Shown: one piece after another, positions 52,180 to 58,504 of the stretch
Numbering within the stretch: the first letter of the stretch is position 1
How the letters are laid out: the number at the start of each line of letters is the position of its first letter
NCBI GenBank assembly: GCA_037310415.1
Contig: CP147780.1
Span: forward strand, 192,001 to 256,000
Reading direction: 5' to 3'
DNA from: Candidatus Atabeyarchaeum deiterrae
GTDB taxonomy: Archaea > Asgardarchaeota > Atabeyarchaeia > Atabeyarchaeales > Atabeyarchaeaceae
Length of the DNA: 64,000 nucleotides
The notes under the pieces: model-generated
The model's database searches: none
The model's input: only the letters and a program-made list of their open reading frames with translations
Told to the model about the DNA's origin: nothing
Position numbers and translations under genes: made by a program

Positions 52180-54081
52180 TTGGCATCTAAGTTAAGTGAT
52201 GAAGTCAAGTCAGCGCTGGAAAGAGCGCTCTCAAAAATGAAAGTCAAAGTAAGTTTTTCCTTGGAGGAGACTCTTGAGAAGCCACCGGATACGAAGCTAG
52301 GTGACTTCGCGTCAACGGTTGCCTTGAGACTTGCAAAACAACTCAAGTTGAAACCCTTTGAAATAGCCAGAAAGATCAAAGAGAATATTCAGGTTCCAAG
52401 CCAAGGACTGATTGAAAGGGTCGAGGTGCAACCACCAGGTTACGTCAACTTCTTTGTAAGAACGGCAAACCTAGCGAAAGGCACCATTGACGAGGTGGCA
52501 AAGGGACAGAACAAATACGGGTGGAACAACTCTGGCAAAGGAAGAAAGGTTCTTGTCGAGCACACTTCGATCAACCCTACCAAACCTTTACATATCGGTC
52601 ATTTGAGGAACGCGATTATAGGCGATATCATTGCAAAGACCTACACCGCGTGTGGATGGAGTGTTGAGGTCGAGAACTTAATCGATGACATGGGCAGACA
52701 AGTCGCCATATTGGTCTGGGCTTTCGACAACAATATTCACCTGGAGGTTCCCAAGGATGACGATATGAAACTTGATTTATGGTATGGGCTTGTCTACTCC
52801 AGAGGGGACTCGAAACTAACTGAAAGACCTGATCTCGAGGGCGAAATCGAGAAGGTAATGCACGCGATGCACGATCATAATCATGAGATATCGAGATTTG
52901 CGAGAATCATATCTGAAAAGTGTCTCGAGTCCAACCTTGAGACGACCTCAAGATTAGGTGTCTTCTATGATATACTTGTATGGGAGAGTGACATAGGTCA
53001 GGCCGAGGTATGGAGCGAGGCCTTCGAGAAGTTAAAGAGCACACCTGAGCATTTTGGATTAGAAACGGAAGGAGAGCACAAAGGTTGCTTCGTTGCCAAG
53101 CTGGGTCATTTGGACGAATTCAGAGATTTGAAAAGCAGCGATAAGGTAATCGTGCGGTCCAATGGTGTTCCAACATATATTGCGAGTGACATTGCATACC
53201 AAATGTGGAAATTCGGTTTGCTGAAAACGGATATGAAATACAGAGCGCATCATGTTCAATCTGACGGAAGAGTGATTTGGACAACATCACCAATCCTCGC
53301 TAGTGAACAACGCGAGAAGTTCGCACATGCTGATAGAGTGATAAACGTGATTGGCTACGAACAGACATACCTTCAGCAGATCGTAAGGCTGTGCTTGAAA
53401 TTGCTGGGATACGAAAGTGAATTCAAGAACTCGATTCACTTATCATACAAGCACGTTGAGATTGCTGAGGGAAGATTCTCGGGAAGATCAGGGAATTGGT
53501 TTGGTTTCCATGCCGACGCTGTCGTTAATAGAACCATACTTCAAGCATACGAGCAAGTAAGTAAGAATCACCCCGATCTTCCAGAGCTCAAGAAGAGAGA
53601 AATCAGTGAAATCATAGGCGTTGGATCTGTAAGGTATTGGTTAGCAAAGTTCAGTCTTGATCAGACAATTATATTCGATTACGACAAAGTGACGGACTTC
53701 AACGGGGAAACTGGACCGTACATCCAGTACGCAACGGTAAGAGCAAACAGCATCATAGATAAGGCTGGATCAGGAGCTCTGACAAATCTGCCTAGAGTGA
53801 ACCTCGACGTGCTCTCTGACGAATCAGAAGTTGACTTGATCAAAAGTATTGCGTCCTTCCCAGATACAGTGACAAATTCTGCTGAAAGCCATTCACCCAG
53901 CTTTCTGGCAAATTACGCGCATGAATTGGCTCTGAAGTTCAACAAGTTCTACGAGAAACGACCAGTGCTGACAGCGCCGGAGAACGAAAAACAAGCTCGC
54001 CTTGCACTCGTACTCGCTGCGAGGCAAACACTATTCAATGCGCTAAACCTGCTTGGAATAAAAGTGCCGGAACAAATGTAG
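52180..54081 (+). CDS. argS: Arginine--tRNA ligase
   Basis: GDFAS, EHTSINPTKPLHIGHLRN, RSNG..TY..SDIAY, FSGRSG and GPYIQY motifs. Confidence 0.96.
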   Translation: MASKLSDEVKSALERALSKMKVKVSFSLEETLEKPPDTKLGDFASTVALRLAKQLKLKPFEIARKIKENIQVPSQGLIERVEVQPPGYVNFFVRTANLAKGTIDEVAKGQNKYGWNNSGKGRKVLVEHTSINPTKPLHIGHLRNAIIGDIIAKTYTACGWSVEVENLIDDMGRQVAILVWAFDNNIHLEVPKDDDMKLDLWYGLVYSRGDSKLTERPDLEGEIEKVMHAMHDHNHEISRFARIISEKCLESNLETTSRLGVFYDILVWESDIGQAEVWSEAFEKLKSTPEHFGLETEGEHKGCFVAKLGHLDEFRDLKSSDKVIVRSNGVPTYIASDIAYQMWKFGLLKTDMKYRAHHVQSDGRVIWTTSPILASEQREKFAHADRVINVIGYEQTYLQQIVRLCLKLLGYESEFKNSIHLSYKHVEIAEGRFSGRSGNWFGFHADAVVNRTILQAYEQVSKNHPDLPELKKREISEIIGVGSVRYWLAKFSLDQTIIFDYDKVTDFNGETGPYIQYATVRANSIIDKAGSGALTNLPRVNLDVLSDESEVDLIKSIASFPDTVTNSAESHSPSFLANYAHELALKFNKFYEKRPVLTAPENEKQARLALVLAARQTLFNALNLLGIKVPEQM

Positions 54082-54124
54082 GTCACTGTTAAATTAGTTG
54101 TTCGATACCATAGTAGAATGAGTA

Positions 54125-54215
54125 GGGCCCGTGGCCTAGTCAGGATAGGGCGTCGGCCTTCGAACTTATGGGGGAAAGCCGATGGTCGTGGGTTCAAATC
54201 CCTCCGGGCCCGCCA
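54125..54215 (+). tRNA. tRNA-Arg(TCG) with 13-nt intron 54164-54176
   Basis: Identical to the 51848 gene except the first anticodon base. Confidence 0.93.
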
Positions 54216-54474
54216 ATCCCGTTGCTGAGATCTTTTGTAGGTTCCTTCGCCTCACCCTTGGATATCCATCCGAATTTTCGTTTCTGTTCCGATATTCCAG
54301 CGGAGTATTACGTCCTGTAATAGCCCTTACTGACTAGATTACCTCGTGTAATCAAGGCAAAATCATTCTGTGTACGCTTGAAAAGAATTAAATATGATTA
54401 CGAATCATGAGTGAACTTGAGACTAGACAAATTGTTGTCTCTTCTTTTCGGTCCTTCGAGGAGGTATTCATCGC

Positions 54475-55692
54475 GTGCCAAAGTTGTCCAAACAATTGTC
54501 AAAGATTAAGACTTCAGCCATTCGAAGAACAGCAGCATGGCTGGCATTAGCCAAGGACAAGAGGGAGATCATAAGTTTCGGAGGAGGTGCACCAAGCCTT
54601 CCGCCACCTCCTGAACTTGTCCAGAAATTGAGGGATGCGCTGAATGATCCCTGGAAAGCGGTTGCCTATGGTGGAACCCGCGGCTCATTAGATCTACGTG
54701 AAGCAATAGTTAGGGATCTAGCCAAGTATGGAAATGTTAAACTAGATGGCGCTGACAACGTCATAGTCACCCATGGTGGAACTGAAGGGATTTTCGCTTG
54801 TCTAGGCTCTATTGTCGACCCAGGTGACGAAGTGATAATCGCAGATCCAACCTACCTGGGGTATCCTGAAGTCATGAAGATAATGAATGCCAAAGCTGTG
54901 CCTTTGCCAGTTTACGTCGACGAAGGGTTCCAACCAGATACCGAGGCTCTGAAGAAGAAAATAAGCAGACACACCAAGGCCTTCGTCTTACTTTCACCTG
55001 ATAACCCTACTGGTCGGGTGATCAAACCTGAAATCGCGAAGGCGATCGTAGACCTTGCGTGCGACCATGACTTCTGGGTAGTCTGTGATGACGCATACAA
55101 GCACACAGTATTCGAGGGACGCCACAGCTGGGTTAGCACCTTCCCAGGTGCCGAGGAACGCACAATTACAATCTGTAGTTTCTCAAAGGAGGCCTCTATA
55201 CCAGGACTAAGACTAGGATACACCTACGGACCCATCGAAGCAATTGACGGCATGGAAAAGTATGCCCAGTACATTTCGCTCTGCCCTGAGACCCTCATCT
55301 CAATGGCTGTAGCAGCTTATTTGAATGACCCGAAGGCGAAAGATCGGTACCTCAATGAGCAGGTCATACCAACCTACAAAGAAAGATGCGACGCTATGTA
55401 CAAGTACATTCGACAACATTTGCCAGAAGCCAGAATCACAAAACCCCAAGGCGCATTCTACTATTTTGTGAATCTTGAGAGCTACTTAGAGAAGTTGAAG
55501 ATGAATGATGAGGAGTTTGCCGACGAGTTAAGGGTGAAGAAAAACACAATAGTGATACCGGGCGACGTGTTTGGCGAAAATGGAAAAAGCCATGCGCGAA
55601 TGACTTTTGTGTCCGAACCAGACAATAGGATCGAGCAAGGAGTCAAGCGAATAGAAGAGTACTTGAATGAGAAACTCAGTGGTAGACCATAG
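54475..55692 (+). CDS. Class I/II PLP-dependent aminotransferase
   Basis: SPDNPTG, DDAY, SFSK...PGLRLG and PQGAFY motifs. Confidence 0.9.
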   Translation: MPKLSKQLSKIKTSAIRRTAAWLALAKDKREIISFGGGAPSLPPPPELVQKLRDALNDPWKAVAYGGTRGSLDLREAIVRDLAKYGNVKLDGADNVIVTHGGTEGIFACLGSIVDPGDEVIIADPTYLGYPEVMKIMNAKAVPLPVYVDEGFQPDTEALKKKISRHTKAFVLLSPDNPTGRVIKPEIAKAIVDLACDHDFWVVCDDAYKHTVFEGRHSWVSTFPGAEERTITICSFSKEASIPGLRLGYTYGPIEAIDGMEKYAQYISLCPETLISMAVAAYLNDPKAKDRYLNEQVIPTYKERCDAMYKYIRQHLPEARITKPQGAFYYFVNLESYLEKLKMNDEEFADELRVKKNTIVIPGDVFGENGKSHARMTFVSEPDNRIEQGVKRIEEYLNEKLSGRP

Positions 55693-55720: not shown

Positions 55721-56956
55721 TTAGAATCTGACTGGAGCAAAGAACAAGATCATAGGACCGAGTTTGAGTTTTCTTCTTTTCGATTTGACTTCACTCGTTA
55801 TTGCCAACAGAGTGTTTAGATGCTCATCCAGGCTGGAGACGGTTGCGTCTCTGTAAAGTGCGATTGTGTTTATCTTCTCTTCTCGTACGAGAAACTGTAT
55901 TATGATCGGGTTAATTGAATAGTCATGTTTCCAAGGGTTATTTGGTGTTAACACAATCCTTCTGCTTTCCGGGATTAGCTCTACTTTTGTTCTTGCCATG
56001 GCGACTTGATCGACTGTTTCTGCTGAGCCTTTGTCGTCTTTTCCCTCGAAGTGTTCTAGTGTTCTGCCAAGTATTCCCAGATTCTCAAGGTTCCCCGAAA
56101 TAGATTGGTTTGCCTTGGCTTCCTGTTCCTTGCTGGGCAATACTTTCAGGCACATGTATAGAGGCACGTTGTCTTCCTCTAGCCTTCTTGAATACACCTC
56201 GAGAGTCTTGCGGGCAACTTCAGAACATTTCTCGTTACTACTGACGACCCTTAGTGCTGGGCCGAATATTGTTGACGTGTTCTCTGGAGGTTTTGAATTA
56301 GATGCTGAATATGATGGTTGGAATCGTTCTTTTATCTCCTCGAGAGCCGTCTCATATACGTGCGCTGATCCCATCACGGTGAGCAAGTCTCCACGTGAAG
56401 AAGTGCCACCGAAATGCGCAGCGACTTCTGTCAGGAATACAGCATAACTTCCTGAGACATCTTCAGACCATGCCCTTGCAATATCGTTGCTTCGGATATA
56501 TTCGACTAGGTTCACCTTCCCTTTTATCCGCTCAAACATCACTATGTTTATGCAGGGCGGATCTGGACTCTTTATATCCTCAACTGGATTCCAGAACTGT
56601 GCGAAAGCGGATGAAGCAGTGTTCTTCAACGCATCACTTATTTGTTGTATTTGGTTGAACCCGAATCTTTTCCTCATGCACCAACCATAAGTGTATGTGT
56701 GCTCACCTCTCTCCGCCGTAGAGTACTGAGGCCAGTATTGCTGTTCGATAACTTGGGGAGATAAGCCAATGTAATCTTGTGGAGTGATGCTCCCCGTTCT
56801 CCAGTCAGTTAGATGAGCAATTCCACAGAGACATTCAAGCGTTCTTTGTCCCTTTCTTTCAGTGTATGCGATTGTTCCTTTCTCAACGACGGTGTTGACG
56901 ATCGAACGCCATGCCGTATCGACGTTTCTGTTTCTGGTTAAGAATGGTCCATACAT
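55721..56956 (-). CDS. Tandem two-domain thymidylate synthase/dCMP hydroxymethylase-family protein
   Basis: Domain 1 has YTYG, PPC135, R155SND and SAH199VY201. Domain 2 has DQV..PESRR333..NP..QFLVR but no catalytic Cys. Confidence 0.8.
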   Translation of the reverse strand: MYGPFLTRNRNVDTAWRSIVNTVVEKGTIAYTERKGQRTLECLCGIAHLTDWRTGSITPQDYIGLSPQVIEQQYWPQYSTAERGEHTYTYGWCMRKRFGFNQIQQISDALKNTASSAFAQFWNPVEDIKSPDPPCINIVMFERIKGKVNLVEYIRSNDIARAWSEDVSGSYAVFLTEVAAHFGGTSSRGDLLTVMGSAHVYETALEEIKERFQPSYSASNSKPPENTSTIFGPALRVVSSNEKCSEVARKTLEVYSRRLEEDNVPLYMCLKVLPSKEQEAKANQSISGNLENLGILGRTLEHFEGKDDKGSAETVDQVAMARTKVELIPESRRIVLTPNNPWKHDYSINPIIIQFLVREEKINTIALYRDATVSSLDEHLNTLLAITSEVKSKRRKLKLGPMILFFAPVRF

Positions 56957-56971
56957 CTTCTACTACCTCAT

Positions 56972-58504
56972 TTATTGAACCGTCTCTTCGCCAAGCAGAC
57001 GATAGTAAGGATGTGGTGGACGCGGCAAGACACCCATAGTCTTAAGAGCCTCGTCTGCAATGGCAGCTTCCGCTCCAGCCACATCGGGGAAGATGTTTTC
57101 CGCGTTCTTAATAGGTCCATATAGGTTCAAGTCAATTCCGAAGATTGTAGGAAGGGTGTAATCAAAGTCGAATCTGATGTCGTCGTGGTTTTTCACTGAA
57201 GAGTGAAGGTTGTGAATGCCTATGGCTGTGGGAAAACCGAATTGATTTTTCAAGATCCATGCCTGCTCAAGTGCAGACAGCGCACCTCCTCCGAGTCTTG
57301 GCACTCCTGGATCGATTATTGGCTTCTCAACGATATTCTTGAAAAAGCTCAAAGTCTCGCTTGTCTTCTTGTCTGACTCCTCAGCGGATTCCGCGTAGGA
57401 CAAGCAAATGGCATACTTTACTCCTCCGATCTCTTTGAGACTGCCGCGTTCCTTGTCGCTTTTAGTGATTATTGAGTTGTAGATTGTTCTATCCTCGATT
57501 CCAATGTCTTTGGCGAGTCTCAAACCGTGAATCCGAGCTTCAGCAAAGCTGGAGTCAACTATAATCGGTGAATCAGTCTGATCAACCGCGAATAGGAGGT
57601 ACTGTTCGATTGCCTCGACGGTTTGTCCGACGATGTGAACCATAACCGGAATGCTATAGTGTAATGAAAGTTCGTCTTGCTTGTGGATTAGCTCGGCTGC
57701 AACTCTCCTGTCAAAAGTCCCAGTCTTCACGTCTGAGACTATCTTGTCTTTTGTGTAGAAAATCGTACCAGCCATGACAGTTGGGTACTGTCCTCTATAT
57801 CCACCGAGCTTAACCCCGCATAGGTCATAGACTTGAAGCTCTGTCCCAGTAAACGTGAACATAGAGCCCAGCGCGTTTCTGAGTCTCCTCTTGTCTACCT
57901 CGGTCCTCTTCACGAACGCAGAAATCGCCCTTTTCCAGTCGTAGATTTCTTTCCGCTCAGGGGGATAAATCGGTTCCATTTCAAGAGGCTTCAGGTCCGA
58001 ACGGGCGAATAGTTCGTCTATCTTCACTCCAATTTTTTCGAGCGAAGTTTCATCGCTAAGATCTTCAACAGAGGCTATTTGCTGTTGGAAGCGCTTGACA
58101 TATTCTGATGGATTAGCCCCTCTAAAATACGTTGGAAGAAGTGTGGGAATAGTCCCTTGGCTACCTATCACCGTGTATTTGTCGTCTATCCCATTTGAGT
58201 GAAGCGCTTTGAATGTCTGCCCAGGCTCGTGACCTTTAACGCGTTGACCGCAGACCACGACATACCTGATCTCCGGGTTTGATATTATGTTTTGAATTAT
58301 CTTAGCAAGACCCTCGTTTTCAGTTTCGCAGAATCCAGCTATGGCCACGCGATCCGCTCTAGTTTTGATGACTTTGCCCGGAAGGTCGTAGGATCCGCAA
58401 GTCATCACTGCTATCTTGGCTCCTGGGTTACTGACGACATAGTCGCCGGGCAGCGGGGGCCACCTTGTTGCTTTCTTTGTATTATGAACCTGCTTTTCTT
58501 TCAT
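56972..58504 (-). CDS. Soluble MtrA-MtrH fusion (corrinoid protein plus methyl-pterin methyltransferase)
   Basis: MtrA: WPPLPGDY, TENEG..NIISNP.IRY, CG..VKGH92EPGQ. MtrH: GG..GQYPTV.AGTIFY, DSS, IYNSI, IDPGV, GIHN, YGPIKNA, HPY. No TM segment. Confidence 0.88.
   Translation of the reverse strand: MKEKQVHNTKKATRWPPLPGDYVVSNPGAKIAVMTCGSYDLPGKVIKTRADRVAIAGFCETENEGLAKIIQNIISNPEIRYVVVCGQRVKGHEPGQTFKALHSNGIDDKYTVIGSQGTIPTLLPTYFRGANPSEYVKRFQQQIASVEDLSDETSLEKIGVKIDELFARSDLKPLEMEPIYPPERKEIYDWKRAISAFVKRTEVDKRRLRNALGSMFTFTGTELQVYDLCGVKLGGYRGQYPTVMAGTIFYTKDKIVSDVKTGTFDRRVAAELIHKQDELSLHYSIPVMVHIVGQTVEAIEQYLLFAVDQTDSPIIVDSSFAEARIHGLRLAKDIGIEDRTIYNSIITKSDKERGSLKEIGGVKYAICLSYAESAEESDKKTSETLSFFKNIVEKPIIDPGVPRLGGGALSALEQAWILKNQFGFPTAIGIHNLHSSVKNHDDIRFDFDYTLPTIFGIDLNLYGPIKNAENIFPDVAGAEAAIADEALKTMGVLPRPPHPYYRLLGEETVQ

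What the first reader, a model, noticed from the sequence alone, without database searches (positions are those of the whole stretch)
55721..56956. Single-chain asymmetric thymidylate-synthase pseudo-dimer with a dCMP-type specificity residue
Seen: an internal duplication (halves begin MYGPFL and IFGPAL). Domain 1 has catalytic C135, R155-S-N-D158 and H199/Y201 but lacks the RR pair (TASSA). Domain 2 has lost Cys, RSxD and HxY but keeps S-R332-R333. Known: in ThyA dimers the RR pair (E. coli R126/R127) binds the nucleotide phosphate in the partner subunit's site, so these losses are exactly complementary and leave one composite active site. Residue 166 (E. coli N177 by spacing) is Asp, as in T4 dCMP hydroxymethylase, and the Asn-to-Asp change is known to shift ThyA toward dCMP. 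Inference: a cellular (d)CMP C5-modifying enzyme.
Basis: partly seen in the sequence, partly recalled or inferred. Interest (0 to 1): 0.85.

Follow-up and report, generated by a model that had tools for sequence, protein, structure and literature searches.

The report
Single-chain thymidylate synthase with corrinoid partner
This Asgard archaeon's only thymidylate-synthase gene encodes two fused, complementary half-enzymes that appear to form one active site, carries a cytosine-type specificity residue, and is always paired with a vitamin-B12-type methyltransferase gene, which hints at a new route to the DNA base thymine.

Summary
The 411-aa ORF (55721-56956, minus strand) has two thymidylate-synthase (TS) fold domains. 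Domain 1 keeps Cys135, R155-S-N-D158 and H199/Y201 but has no Arg-Arg pair. Domain 2 has lost those residues but keeps S331-R332-R333. Asp166 sits where dUMP-specific TS has Asn177. All of these residues are invariant in 32 homologues from five Asgard families; 133 of the 135 nearest other TS domains that could be scored have Asn.

The "(d)CMP modifier" reading is only partly supported. This is the only TS-family gene in a closed 2.76-Mb genome, which has no ThyX and no thymidine kinase but does have dCTP deaminases and thymidylate kinase. None of the 18 genomes carrying the fused gene has ThyX. It is therefore most likely the cell's thymidylate-forming enzyme.

A MtrA-MtrH fusion gene lies directly upstream on the same strand in 18 of 18 genomes. 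It keeps the cobalt-ligand His, and its full-length form was found only in those genomes.

My best reading is that MtrH loads a methyl group onto the MtrA corrinoid, and the TS domain passes it to C5 of a Cys-activated pyrimidine. I put that relay at about 40%. It is inferred, not shown. The substrate (dUMP or dCMP) and the three-dimensional geometry are also untested. Other first-stage notes on this same stretch proposed the same relay idea.

The parts
55721..56956 (-). Gene for the 411-aa single-chain TS pseudo-dimer (stop codon at 55721-55723)
   Evidence: ORF and translation; PF00303 E 5e-15; 32 full-length homologues
56315..56956 (-). Domain 1 (residues 1-214): catalytic archaeal-type TS domain
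   Evidence: TIGR03283 residues 7-207, 97 bits; structural Z 17-20.5 to TS-family chains; monophyletic clade (100/100) nested among single-domain archaeal TS
56552..56554 (-). Cys135 codon, the catalytic nucleophile (PPC motif)
   Evidence: Aligned to the TS catalytic Cys; invariant 32/32
56606..56620 (-). T113-A-S-S-A117, where a normal TS has its Arg-Arg pair (lost in domain 1)
   Evidence: HMMER alignment to ...SRR... of TS; columns variable and never RR in 32 sequences
56483..56494 (-). R155-S-N-D158 (the RSxD motif: phosphate-binding Arg and Ser, pterin-contacting Asp)
   Evidence: Aligned to RSGD/RSAD of TS; R, S and D invariant
56459..56464 (-). E165-D166; D166 occupies the Asn177 (E. 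coli) / Asn229 (L. casei) specificity column
   Evidence: alignment, including to the N229D mutant 1njc; D166 is 32/32 and residue 165 is always E or D; 133 of 135 scorable nearest other TS have Asn
56354..56362 (-). H199-V-Y201 (equivalent to H207/Y209, the deoxyribose 3'-OH contacts)
56273..56314 (-). Inter-domain linker (residues 215-228), low model confidence
   Evidence: pLDDT 55-59 for residues 211-230; the only stretch below 50 is 216-220
55724..56272 (-). Domain 2 (residues 229-411): degenerate TS fold lacking Cys, RSxD and HxY
   Evidence: hhalign 97.4%, E 9.6e-12; PDB profile hits are TS only; fold search finds only the TS family at Z>=5
55958..55966 (-). S331-R332-R333, the retained Arg-Arg pair, expected to complete the phosphate site of domain 1
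   Evidence: Aligned to SRR (E. coli R126/R127); invariant 32/32. Reaching the C135 site is inferred, not measured
56957..56971 (-). 15-nt gap between the mtrAH stop (TAA) and the TS start, containing GAGGT
   Evidence: Sequence read; gaps of -1 to about 55 nt in 17 other genomes
56972..58504 (-). mtrA-mtrH fusion gene (510 aa), directly upstream and co-oriented
   Evidence: PF04208 E 5e-39 plus PF02007 E 5e-56; adjacent in 18/18 genomes, and the full-length fusion was found only there (also 27-29)
58001..58483 (-). MtrA corrinoid-binding domain (residues 8-168); His92 codon at 58229-58231, Glu62 codon at 58319-58321
   Evidence: E 9e-33 to 5laa; the GH(E/A)PGQ His and ExEN Glu are invariant in 17 orthologues. 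Roles of His84/Glu54 are from PMC4915002
56990..57859 (-). MtrH-type methyl-pterin:corrinoid methyltransferase domain (residues 216-505)
   Evidence: E 2e-39 to MtrH 8z9u and 1.6e-36 to MtgA 6sj8. The Asp and Asn replaced by Ala in chains 6sjo and 6sjp are kept here (alignments)

Best explanation
The gene encodes this archaeon's only thymidylate-synthase-family enzyme, built as one chain with two TS folds.

Domain 1 carries the chemistry: the Cys135 nucleophile, R8, R155/S156, D158 and H199/Y201. Domain 2 is a catalytically dead copy. Its retained job is to pack against domain 1 as the second subunit of a TS dimer would, and to donate R332/R333 to the nucleotide phosphate. That leaves one composite active site.

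The gene is co-transcribed and probably translationally coupled with a MtrA-MtrH fusion. The proposed mechanism has four steps.
1. MtrH takes the methyl group of methyl-H4F or methyl-H4MPT and puts it on Co(I) of the cobamide held by MtrA.
2. Cys135 adds to C6 of the bound pyrimidine nucleotide.
3. The resulting C5 enolate or enamine attacks CH3-Co(III), regenerating Co(I).
4. Beta-elimination releases the 5-methyl nucleotide.

The product feeds dTMP. The substrate is most likely dUMP, with Asp166 (kept protonated by the acidic residue at 165) acting as hydrogen-bond donor or acid at O4. The alternative is dCMP, followed by deamination.

What is shown: the two TS domains, the complementary residue pattern and its conservation, the sole-TS status, and the strict gene pairing.

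What is inferred: the dimer-like packing, dTMP as the end product (about 75%), the corrinoid relay (about 40%), and dUMP rather than dCMP (about 60:35).
For: Architecture and residues.

Sole TS. There is one PF00303 hit, no ThyX and no TK in a one-contig, 97%-complete genome. Thymidylate kinase is present. Two dCTP deaminase equivalogs are present.

Phyletic complementarity. The fused gene is in 18 of 20 genomes of five families, and ThyX is in 0 of those 20. Families with no TS-family hit carry ThyX (f4 21/21, f13 7/7, f16 5/5). Every pseudo-dimer family keeps a dC-nucleotide deaminase: a dCTP deaminase in four families and a ComEB-like protein in the fifth.

Partner gene. MtrAH lies immediately upstream on the same strand in 18/18 genomes and in three further metagenome contigs whose other neighbours differ. 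Full-length MtrAH matches occur only in those genomes. The MtrA His/Glu cobalt-ligand dyad is invariant. The MtrH domain keeps the MtgA residues that the deposited mutant chains replace.

Genome supply. MTHFR and a RACo-type corrinoid activase are present.

Missing piece. The MtrAH fusion provides the methyl-loading enzyme and the corrinoid carrier, but no known second methyltransferase is in the operon. The published Asgard study states that the methyl acceptor of this fusion is unknown (PMC11291895).

Independent link. MtrA-like domains are fused to archaeal-type TS in many DPANN proteins. On the tree these are a separate TS lineage from domain 1, so the association arose at least twice.
Against: No experiment or structure bears on the relay.
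- D158, the counterpart of the pterin-contacting Asp169 that folate-independent 5-hydroxy-dCMP synthases replace by Asn (PMC13326640), is invariant. This fits a pterin still binding in the TS site, that is, classical chemistry.
- Most DPANN MtrA-like domains lack the cobalt-ligand His and have no MtrH neighbour, so the MtrA-TS association need not involve a corrinoid.
- Asp at the Asn177 column is the experimentally established dCMP determinant, and the closest structural matches are dCMP/CMP enzymes.
- CobS was not found, so the cobamide would have to be imported.
- A weak dNK-like ORF means nucleoside salvage is not strictly excluded.
Confidence: 0.45

Rival explanations
1. Ordinary ThyA chemistry in an unusual body. 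The pseudo-dimer methylates dUMP with methylene-H4F or methylene-H4MPT and releases dihydropterin. MtrAH is a separate C1-pool enzyme that merely shares an operon.
For: D158 (Asp169 equivalent), E41 (Glu58 equivalent by eye), Y90 and the RSxD and HxY motifs are all kept. Domain 1 nests among single-domain archaeal ThyA that have no MtrA neighbour. Databases call it thymidylate synthase. dCTP deaminases supply dUMP.
Against: This does not explain why the full-length MtrAH fusion occurs only with this gene, always directly upstream (18/18). It also does not explain the invariant Asn-to-Asp change against 133/135 Asn in relatives. No DHFR is present, although none was found in any of 201 Asgard genomes, so that point is weak.
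Confidence: 0.3
2. dCMP-first route to thymidylate. The enzyme methylates dCMP to 5-methyl-dCMP, from either C1 donor. A deaminase then yields a thymine nucleotide: a dCTP-deaminase paralogue acting after phosphorylation, the ComEB-like enzyme, or hydrolytic deamination of the 5,6-dihydro-cytosine adduct on the enzyme itself.
For: D166 is invariant and residue 165 is always acidic. Asp at this column confers dCMP preference in E. coli and L. casei TS, and it is the native residue of T4 dCMP hydroxymethylase and MilA (PMC13326640). The top structural matches are a phage dCMP hydroxylase (Z 20.5) and MilA (Z 19.0), against about 17.5 for classical TS. CDA-type deaminases are depleted in pseudo-dimer families: 6/20 genomes against 157/181 elsewhere.
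Against: No CDA-type deaminase is present in this genome. The number of DCD paralogues does not track the fused gene. No 5-methyl-dC-nucleotide deaminase of the DCD family is known (my own knowledge). The dUMP route is complete without extra assumptions.
Confidence: 0.15
3. This is a dedicated (d)CMP or CMP C5-methylase or hydroxymethylase that makes a modified cytosine nucleotide for DNA, RNA or a metabolite, and is not part of dTMP synthesis.
For: The same residue evidence as above. The position equivalent by spacing to E. coli L143 is Asp or Asn, as in hydroxymethylases.
Against: It would leave 18 genomes, three of them single-contig, with no thymidylate synthase of any known kind and no TK. 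The whole archaeal short-TS clade has a polar residue at the L143 position, so that signature does not discriminate here. There is no phage, defence or antibiotic-cluster context; the neighbours are housekeeping genes.
Confidence: 0.08

Closest known systems
Archaeal short thymidylate synthase (NCBIfam TIGR03283 thy_syn_methano; single-domain ThyA of about 200-220 aa from methanogens and many Asgard archaea)
   Same: This is the best-scoring family for domain 1 (97 bits, residues 7-207). It has the same compact fold, without the C-terminal part of bacterial ThyA. The motifs YTYG, SRR, PPC, RSND and AHxY are shared, and domain 1 nests in this clade.
   Different: The score is below the equivalog cut-off (174.55). 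Those proteins are single-domain, keep their own RR pair and have Asn at the specificity column. Twelve Asgard examples had no MtrA-like ORF within 6 kb. Here two domains are fused, with complementary losses, Asp166 and an obligatory MtrAH partner.
Classical homodimeric ThyA (E. coli, L. casei) and its engineered one-site heterodimers (Arg-mutant plus Cys-mutant subunit complementation; recalled from the literature, not checked here)
   Same: Each active site is completed by the Arg-Arg pair of the other subunit. A dimer with only one intact composite site is catalytically competent, and this protein is the natural single-chain counterpart of that arrangement.
   Different: The natural protein is one polypeptide. 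Domain 2 is shortened and strongly diverged (12-16% identity to TS chains). It has Asp at Asn177, and the C-terminal lid region is absent.
dCMP/CMP-acting TS homologues: T4 dCMP hydroxymethylase, MilA CMP hydroxymethylase, phage 5-hydroxy-dCMP synthases (AfhB, 9iqu/9iqc)
   Same: They have Asp at the Asn177 column and a polar or acidic residue at the L143 position. They are also the best structural matches to domain 1 (Z 20.5 and 19.0; residue rules from PMC13326640).
   Different: Those are homodimers from phages or an antibiotic gene cluster, in organisms that have a separate TS. Here the protein is the only TS homologue of a cellular genome and sits among housekeeping genes. D158 is Asp, not the Asn diagnostic of the hydroxylases.
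Corrinoid methyltransferase relays (MtrA-H of methanogens; MtgA/MtgC; MetH)
   Same: The upstream gene supplies a MtrH/MtgA-type methyl-pterin:corrinoid methyltransferase and a MtrA cobamide carrier with the His/Glu ligand dyad. A RACo-type activase is in the genome.
   Different: No known methyl-accepting second methyltransferase (MtrE, MtaA/UroD type, or the MetH homocysteine domain) accompanies it. The only constant partner is a TS-fold protein. A carbon nucleophile on a nucleotide as acceptor has no precedent known to me in this enzyme class.
DPANN MtrA-like / TS / DUF4346 (PF14251) fusion proteins of about 460-510 aa
   Same: A MtrA-fold domain is physically joined to an archaeal-type TS domain.
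   Different: Those have one TS domain with Asn and its own RR pair. Most of their MtrA-like domains lack the cobalt-ligand His. They carry an extra DUF4346 domain and have no MtrH nearby. Their TS domains form a separate lineage on the tree.

Membership tests
Thymidylate synthase ThyA superfamily (Pfam PF00303) | Significant match to the family HMM above the gathering score | tested here: met
   55.8 bits against a cut-off of 24.3, residues 73-213. Domain 2 is recognised only by profile and fold comparison.
Thymidylate synthase ThyA superfamily (Pfam PF00303) | Catalytic Cys in a P-C motif, followed by RSxD and HxY | tested here: met
   C135, R155-S-N-D158 and H199/Y201 align to the TS motifs and are invariant 32/32.
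Thymidylate synthase (EC 2.1.1.45), dUMP-specific equivalog | Score above an NCBIfam equivalog cut-off | tested here: not met
   The best is TIGR03283 at 97.3 bits against a cut-off of 174.55. All other TS equivalogs fall far below their cut-offs.
Thymidylate synthase (EC 2.1.1.45), dUMP-specific equivalog | Asn at the E. coli 177 / L. casei 229 position | tested here: not met
   Asp166 in 32/32 sequences. Asn in 133 of 135 scorable nearest other TS.
Thymidylate synthase (EC 2.1.1.45), dUMP-specific equivalog | Homodimer of identical subunits, each donating an Arg-Arg pair to the other's site | tested here: not met
   A single chain with two unequal TS domains. The RR pair is present only in domain 2, and the catalytic residues only in domain 1.
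Thymidylate synthase (EC 2.1.1.45), dUMP-specific equivalog | Four-arginine phosphate site assembled across the subunit interface | tested here: inconclusive
   All four Arg are present at sequence level (R8 and R155 from domain 1; R332 and R333 from domain 2). The whole-chain model has pTM 0.88. No coordinates were available to measure distances.
Thymidylate synthase (EC 2.1.1.45), dUMP-specific equivalog | Converts dUMP to dTMP with methylene-tetrahydrofolate | not testable with these tools
   This needs an enzyme assay. The genomic argument is that it is the only candidate dTMP synthase.
dCMP/CMP hydroxymethylase-type TS homologues (T4 gp42, MilA) | Asp at the Asn177 position | tested here: met
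   D166. The rule is as stated in PMC13326640.
dCMP/CMP hydroxymethylase-type TS homologues (T4 gp42, MilA) | Acidic residue at the L143 position (admits water, giving a hydroxymethyl product) | tested here: inconclusive
   Residue 132 (Cys minus 3) is Asp in 14 and Asn in 18 of 32 sequences. The whole archaeal short-TS clade is polar here, so the rule does not discriminate.
dCMP/CMP hydroxymethylase-type TS homologues (T4 gp42, MilA) | The host or virus has a separate route to dTMP; the gene sits in a phage or secondary-metabolite context | tested here: not met
   No other TS, ThyX or TK is in the genome. The neighbours are argS, an aminotransferase, Nep1 and ribosomal genes.
5-hydroxy-dCMP synthases (AfhB-type, flavin-dependent TS homologues) | Asn replacing Asp169 | tested here: not met
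   D158 is Asp in 32/32. The diagnostic is from PMC13326640.
Corrinoid-dependent methyltransferase system (methyl-loading enzyme + corrinoid protein + methyl-accepting enzyme) | Methyl-pterin:corrinoid methyltransferase of the MtrH/MtgA type | tested here: met
   PF02007 E 5e-56. 8z9u E 2e-39 and 6sj8 E 1.6e-36, with the Asp and Asn positions mutated in 6sjo/6sjp conserved.
Corrinoid-dependent methyltransferase system (methyl-loading enzyme + corrinoid protein + methyl-accepting enzyme) | Corrinoid carrier with the cobalt-ligand His and its Glu partner | tested here: met
   The MtrA domain matches 5laa at E 9e-33. His92 and Glu62 are invariant in 17 orthologues. Their roles are from PMC4915002.
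Corrinoid-dependent methyltransferase system (methyl-loading enzyme + corrinoid protein + methyl-accepting enzyme) | A second methyltransferase that takes the methyl from Co(III) to the final acceptor | not testable with these tools
   No known methyl-accepting family is in the operon. That the TS pseudo-dimer fills this role is inferred from strict co-occurrence.

The most novel reading that the evidence does not exclude
A third kind of thymidylate synthesis besides ThyA and ThyX. It would be a corrinoid-dependent, redox-neutral pathway in which MtrH and MtrA hand a methyl group from methyl-tetrahydropterin, via CH3-Co(III), to C5 of a Cys-activated pyrimidine nucleotide held in the single composite site of a TS pseudo-dimer. 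The substrate could be dCMP, with deamination on or after the enzyme. This would also name the long-sought methyl acceptor of the Asgard MtrAH fusion.
Probability: 0.35. Interest if true: 0.95.

Novelty: new variant of a known kind. Interest (0 to 1): 0.8.

Why it matters
Thymidylate synthesis is essential, and only two enzyme classes (ThyA and ThyX) are known.

This is a natural single-chain TS with one composite site. It is the natural counterpart of the engineered one-site heterodimers used to study half-of-the-sites reactivity.

It is also the sole TS of several Asgard lineages, yet it carries the residue that turns ThyA into a dCMP enzyme. [quoted passage not shown]

Its strict pairing with a MtrA-MtrH corrinoid methyltransferase gives a concrete, testable acceptor for an enzyme whose methyl acceptor the literature calls uncertain (PMC11291895). 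If the relay is real, it would be a new B12-dependent C-methylation of a nucleotide that does not oxidise the pterin. It would also show that current annotation ('thymidylate synthase', 'Mtr subunits') hides a new pathway.

Tried and rejected
1. A complex prediction of the TS pseudo-dimer with the MtrA domain, both given as alignments, gave no verdict (score 0.08, mark 0.32). I do not use it either way.

2. Direct comparison of the two halves was not significant (BLASTP E 4.2; hhalign global and local, E 0.31 and 0.06). Homology of domain 2 rests on comparison with other TS.

3. The tree of both domains with relatives could not place the long-branched domain 2. Internal duplication and fusion of two paralogues remain equally open.

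4. The search for related loci with a broad archaeal-TS alignment failed because no stretch was conserved enough. Named methanogen loci were therefore not examined.

5. Absence of DHFR as support for a redox-neutral route was dropped: PF00186 was found in none of 201 Asgard genomes, including those with classical ThyA.

6. The idea of an extra dCTP-deaminase paralogue as a 5-methyl-dCTP deaminase was dropped. DCD copy number does not follow the fused gene: one pseudo-dimer family (f15) has a single copy, while two ThyX families (f16, f19) have two or three.

7. The L143 'methyl versus hydroxymethyl' rule does not discriminate, because the whole archaeal short-TS clade is polar at that position.

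8. A MtrA-like ORF next to single-domain TS was sought in 12 Asgard loci (11 of family f6, one of f3). None lay within 6 kb.

9. MtrH was sought next to DPANN MtrA-TS-DUF4346 fusions. None was found in two contexts.

10. Literature searches for DUF4346, for MtrA with thymidylate synthase, for TS pseudo-dimers and for MJ0757 found nothing relevant. The Asgard thyA/thyX survey (PMC9931769) does not mention a fused or tandem form.

11. Model coordinates are not exposed to the script box. The R332/R333-to-C135 distance and the superposition of D166 on N177 in three dimensions were therefore not measured.
Full report
**What is there**

The minus-strand ORF at 55721-56956 encodes 411 residues.

Pfam finds one TS domain, at residues 73-213 (PF00303, E 5e-15). 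The best NCBIfam model is the archaeal short TS, TIGR03283 (97 bits over residues 7-207), which is below its equivalog cut-off of 174.55. HMMER alignments to solved TS place:
- C135 on the catalytic Cys,
- RSND on RSxD,
- H199/Y201 on H207/Y209,
- TASSA where TS has SRR,
- D166 on the Asn177/Asn229 column, matched letter for letter to the Asp of the L. casei N229D mutant 1njc.

**The second half is a degenerate TS domain**

Compared directly, the two halves show no significant similarity (BLASTP E 4.2; hhalign E 0.06). The evidence for domain 2 comes from comparison with other TS:
- Residues 225-411 alone give weak hits to TS models (E 2.5e-4).
- A profile of domain 2 against 22 single-domain archaeal TS gives hhalign probability 97.4%, E 9.6e-12 over 160 columns.
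- The same profile hits only TS chains in the PDB, centred on dQI...SRRivv..NP.
- Domain 2 folded alone has pLDDT 87.9 and pTM 0.85. A search of 48,161 representative chains finds exactly seven with Z>=5. All are TS family: ThyA 12.5, dCMP hydroxylase 11.8, MilA 10.5, T4 dCMP hydroxymethylase 9.9. The next chain has Z 4.9. Foldseek agrees.

The full-length model has pLDDT 84.7 and pTM 0.88, with a low-confidence linker at residues 211-230. That argues for a fixed arrangement of the two domains.

**Conservation**

I collected 32 full-length homologues with 37-100% identity. Source names include Njordarchaeota, Atabeyarchaeia and a 'Lokiarchaeota' MAG.
- Invariant residues: R8, E33, E41, C135, R155, S156, D158, D166, H199, Y201, S331, R332 and R333.
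- Residue 165 is always Glu or Asp.
- The positions in domain 1 that would hold the RR pair vary and are never RR.

Among the 147 other nearest TS representatives, 135 could be scored at the specificity column. Of these, 133 have Asn and two have Asp, and one of those two is a fragment of this family.

In a tree, domain 1 and domain 2 each form a 100/100 clade, and their internal branching is congruent. This points to one origin of the fused gene. Domain 1 nests with single-domain archaeal TS (98/96 support). Domain 2 sits on a long branch and cannot be placed.

**Is it the cell's thymidylate synthase?**

The window lies in a single-contig genome of 2.76 Mb that is 97% complete. In that genome:
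- This gene is the only PF00303 match.
- There is no ThyX, no thymidine kinase and no CDA-type deaminase.
- There are two dCTP deaminase equivalogs and a dUTPase-like protein, and a thymidylate kinase.
- One weak dNK-like ORF is the only hint of nucleoside salvage.

Across 201 sampled Asgard genomes, the full-length fused gene occurs in 18 of 20 genomes of five families. The two genomes without it are 69% and 83% complete. ThyX occurs in none of those 20, but in 21/21, 14/19, 7/7, 5/5 and 8/10 genomes of families that have no TS-family match. Other families carry a single-domain archaeal ThyA or a long classical ThyA. This is the usual pattern for alternative, mutually replacing thymidylate synthases.

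Every pseudo-dimer family also keeps a deoxycytidine-nucleotide deaminase. Four families have a dCTP deaminase above the equivalog cut-off. The fifth has a ComEB-like deaminase plus an ambiguous DCD/dUTPase protein. That is what one expects if dUMP is still being made for this enzyme.

I therefore put about 75% on dTMP being the physiological end product, and about 60:35 on dUMP rather than dCMP as the direct substrate.

**The Asp problem**

By the residue rules compiled in PMC13326640, Asp at the Asn177 column means a preference for dCMP, and it is the native residue in T4 dCMP hydroxymethylase and MilA. The best structural matches to domain 1 are a phage dCMP hydroxylase (Z 20.5, rmsd 2.2, 198 residues aligned) and MilA (Z 19.0). 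Classical TS scores about 17.5.

CDA-type deaminases are depleted in the pseudo-dimer families: 6/20 genomes against 157/181 elsewhere. A dCMP-first route to thymidylate therefore stays open.

The 'L143' rule for hydroxymethylation does not help, because the whole archaeal short-TS clade is polar at that position. D158 is Asp, so the protein is not of the 5-hydroxy-dCMP synthase type.

**The partner gene**

Fifteen nucleotides upstream (TAA, a gap containing GAGGT, then ATG) ends a 510-aa MtrA-MtrH fusion (PF04208 E 5e-39, PF02007 E 5e-56).
- Its MtrA domain matches the cobalamin-bound MtrA structure 5laa (E 9e-33).
- It keeps the cobalt-ligand His and its Glu partner. Both are invariant in 17 orthologues.
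- Its MtrH domain matches MtrH and the methylcorrinoid:tetrahydrofolate methyltransferase MtgA, and keeps the Asp and Asn that the deposited mutant chains replace.

In all 18 genomes with the pseudo-dimer, this fusion lies directly upstream on the same strand, with gaps of -1 to about 55 nt. The same holds in three metagenome contigs whose other neighbours differ. Matches covering both halves of the fusion occur only in those genomes.

The genome also has MTHFR and a RACo-type corrinoid activase. CobS was not found.

The paper that described this Asgard MtrAH fusion says that the fate of its methyl group is uncertain, and it never mentions thymidylate (PMC11291895). The Asgard thyA/thyX survey does not mention a fused TS (PMC9931769).

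**Mechanism proposed**

MtrAH supplies the methyl-loading enzyme and the corrinoid carrier, but the operon contains no known methyl-accepting methyltransferase. The one constant partner is an enzyme whose chemistry generates a carbon nucleophile at C5 of a pyrimidine.

I therefore propose this chain: methyl-pterin, to Co(I)-MtrA, to CH3-Co(III), to C5 of the Cys135 adduct, followed by elimination. The reaction would be redox-neutral, like that of MetH. I give it about 40%.

Arguments against:
- D158, the pterin-contacting Asp, is invariant.
- Most MtrA-like domains fused to TS in DPANN archaea lack the ligand His and have no MtrH nearby.
- There is no experimental evidence.

The main rival is classical methylene-pterin chemistry with MtrAH merely co-regulated, at about 30%.

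**Comparison and novelty**

The protein works like a ThyA dimer that has been reduced to one site. It fails three tests for membership as an ordinary dUMP-specific ThyA equivalog: the score cut-off, Asn177 and the homodimer. I found no description of a natural TS pseudo-dimer or of a TS-MtrAH pairing in the searchable literature.

As shown, this is a new variant of a known kind. If the corrinoid relay is real, it would be a new class of thymidylate synthesis.

Earlier first-stage notes on this same stretch proposed the relay and the Asp reading independently. They are unchecked notes, not evidence.

Noticed in passing
P0027, P0028, P0029, P0031, P0033, P0100 (loci L061-L064): Most of the nearest non-family relatives are DPANN (Woesearchaeota, Nanoarchaeota) proteins of about 460-510 aa with the architecture MtrA-like / TS / PterinBD-DUF4346. 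Their TS domain keeps Asn and SRR, and most of their MtrA-like domains lack the cobalt-ligand His. They are stand-alone genes without MtrH nearby. What the MtrA-like and DUF4346 parts do for a TS is unexplained.
   Followed up: partly
Asgard genome survey: CDA-type deaminases (PF00383) are nearly universal in other Asgard families (157/181 genomes) but rare in the families with the TS pseudo-dimer (6/20). Those families use dCTP deaminase instead, except one family that keeps a ComEB-like deaminase.
   Followed up: partly
G000:C1:577937-578404 and 1215571-1216032 (L002, L003): The genome carries two dCTP deaminase equivalogs (227 and 149 bits) plus a third, dUTPase-like paralogue (L004). The reason for two is unknown.
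   Followed up: partly
P0130 (244 aa): This is the only other TS homologue among the 147 nearest representatives with Asp at the specificity column (RSNDMLEAWACDVWG). It is not a member of the pseudo-dimer family, and its origin was not examined.
   Followed up: no
L009:10798-11427: In one distant relative's contig, a thymidylate kinase gene lies about 3.5 kb downstream of the mtrAH-TS pair.
   Followed up: no
L038:1459-2682 (G020): The MtrAH orthologue here is only 408 aa, and the genome search matched only residues 11-300 of the query. It is possibly an internal deletion, a frameshift or an assembly error in a 77%-complete MAG.
   Followed up: no
L005:8900-10095 compared with window 54081-54475: In Atabeyarchaeia-1, a MJ0013-like gene and a TnpB/Cas12f-like gene are inserted between the aminotransferase and argS. 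The window has no such insertion at the syntenic place.
   Followed up: no
P0073, P0075: These are two MtrA-TS fusions of 391 and 426 aa whose MtrA-like domain does keep the His (GHKSG/GHRSG), though not the Glu. Their TS part ends right at the AHVY motif, so they may be truncated at contig ends.
   Followed up: no
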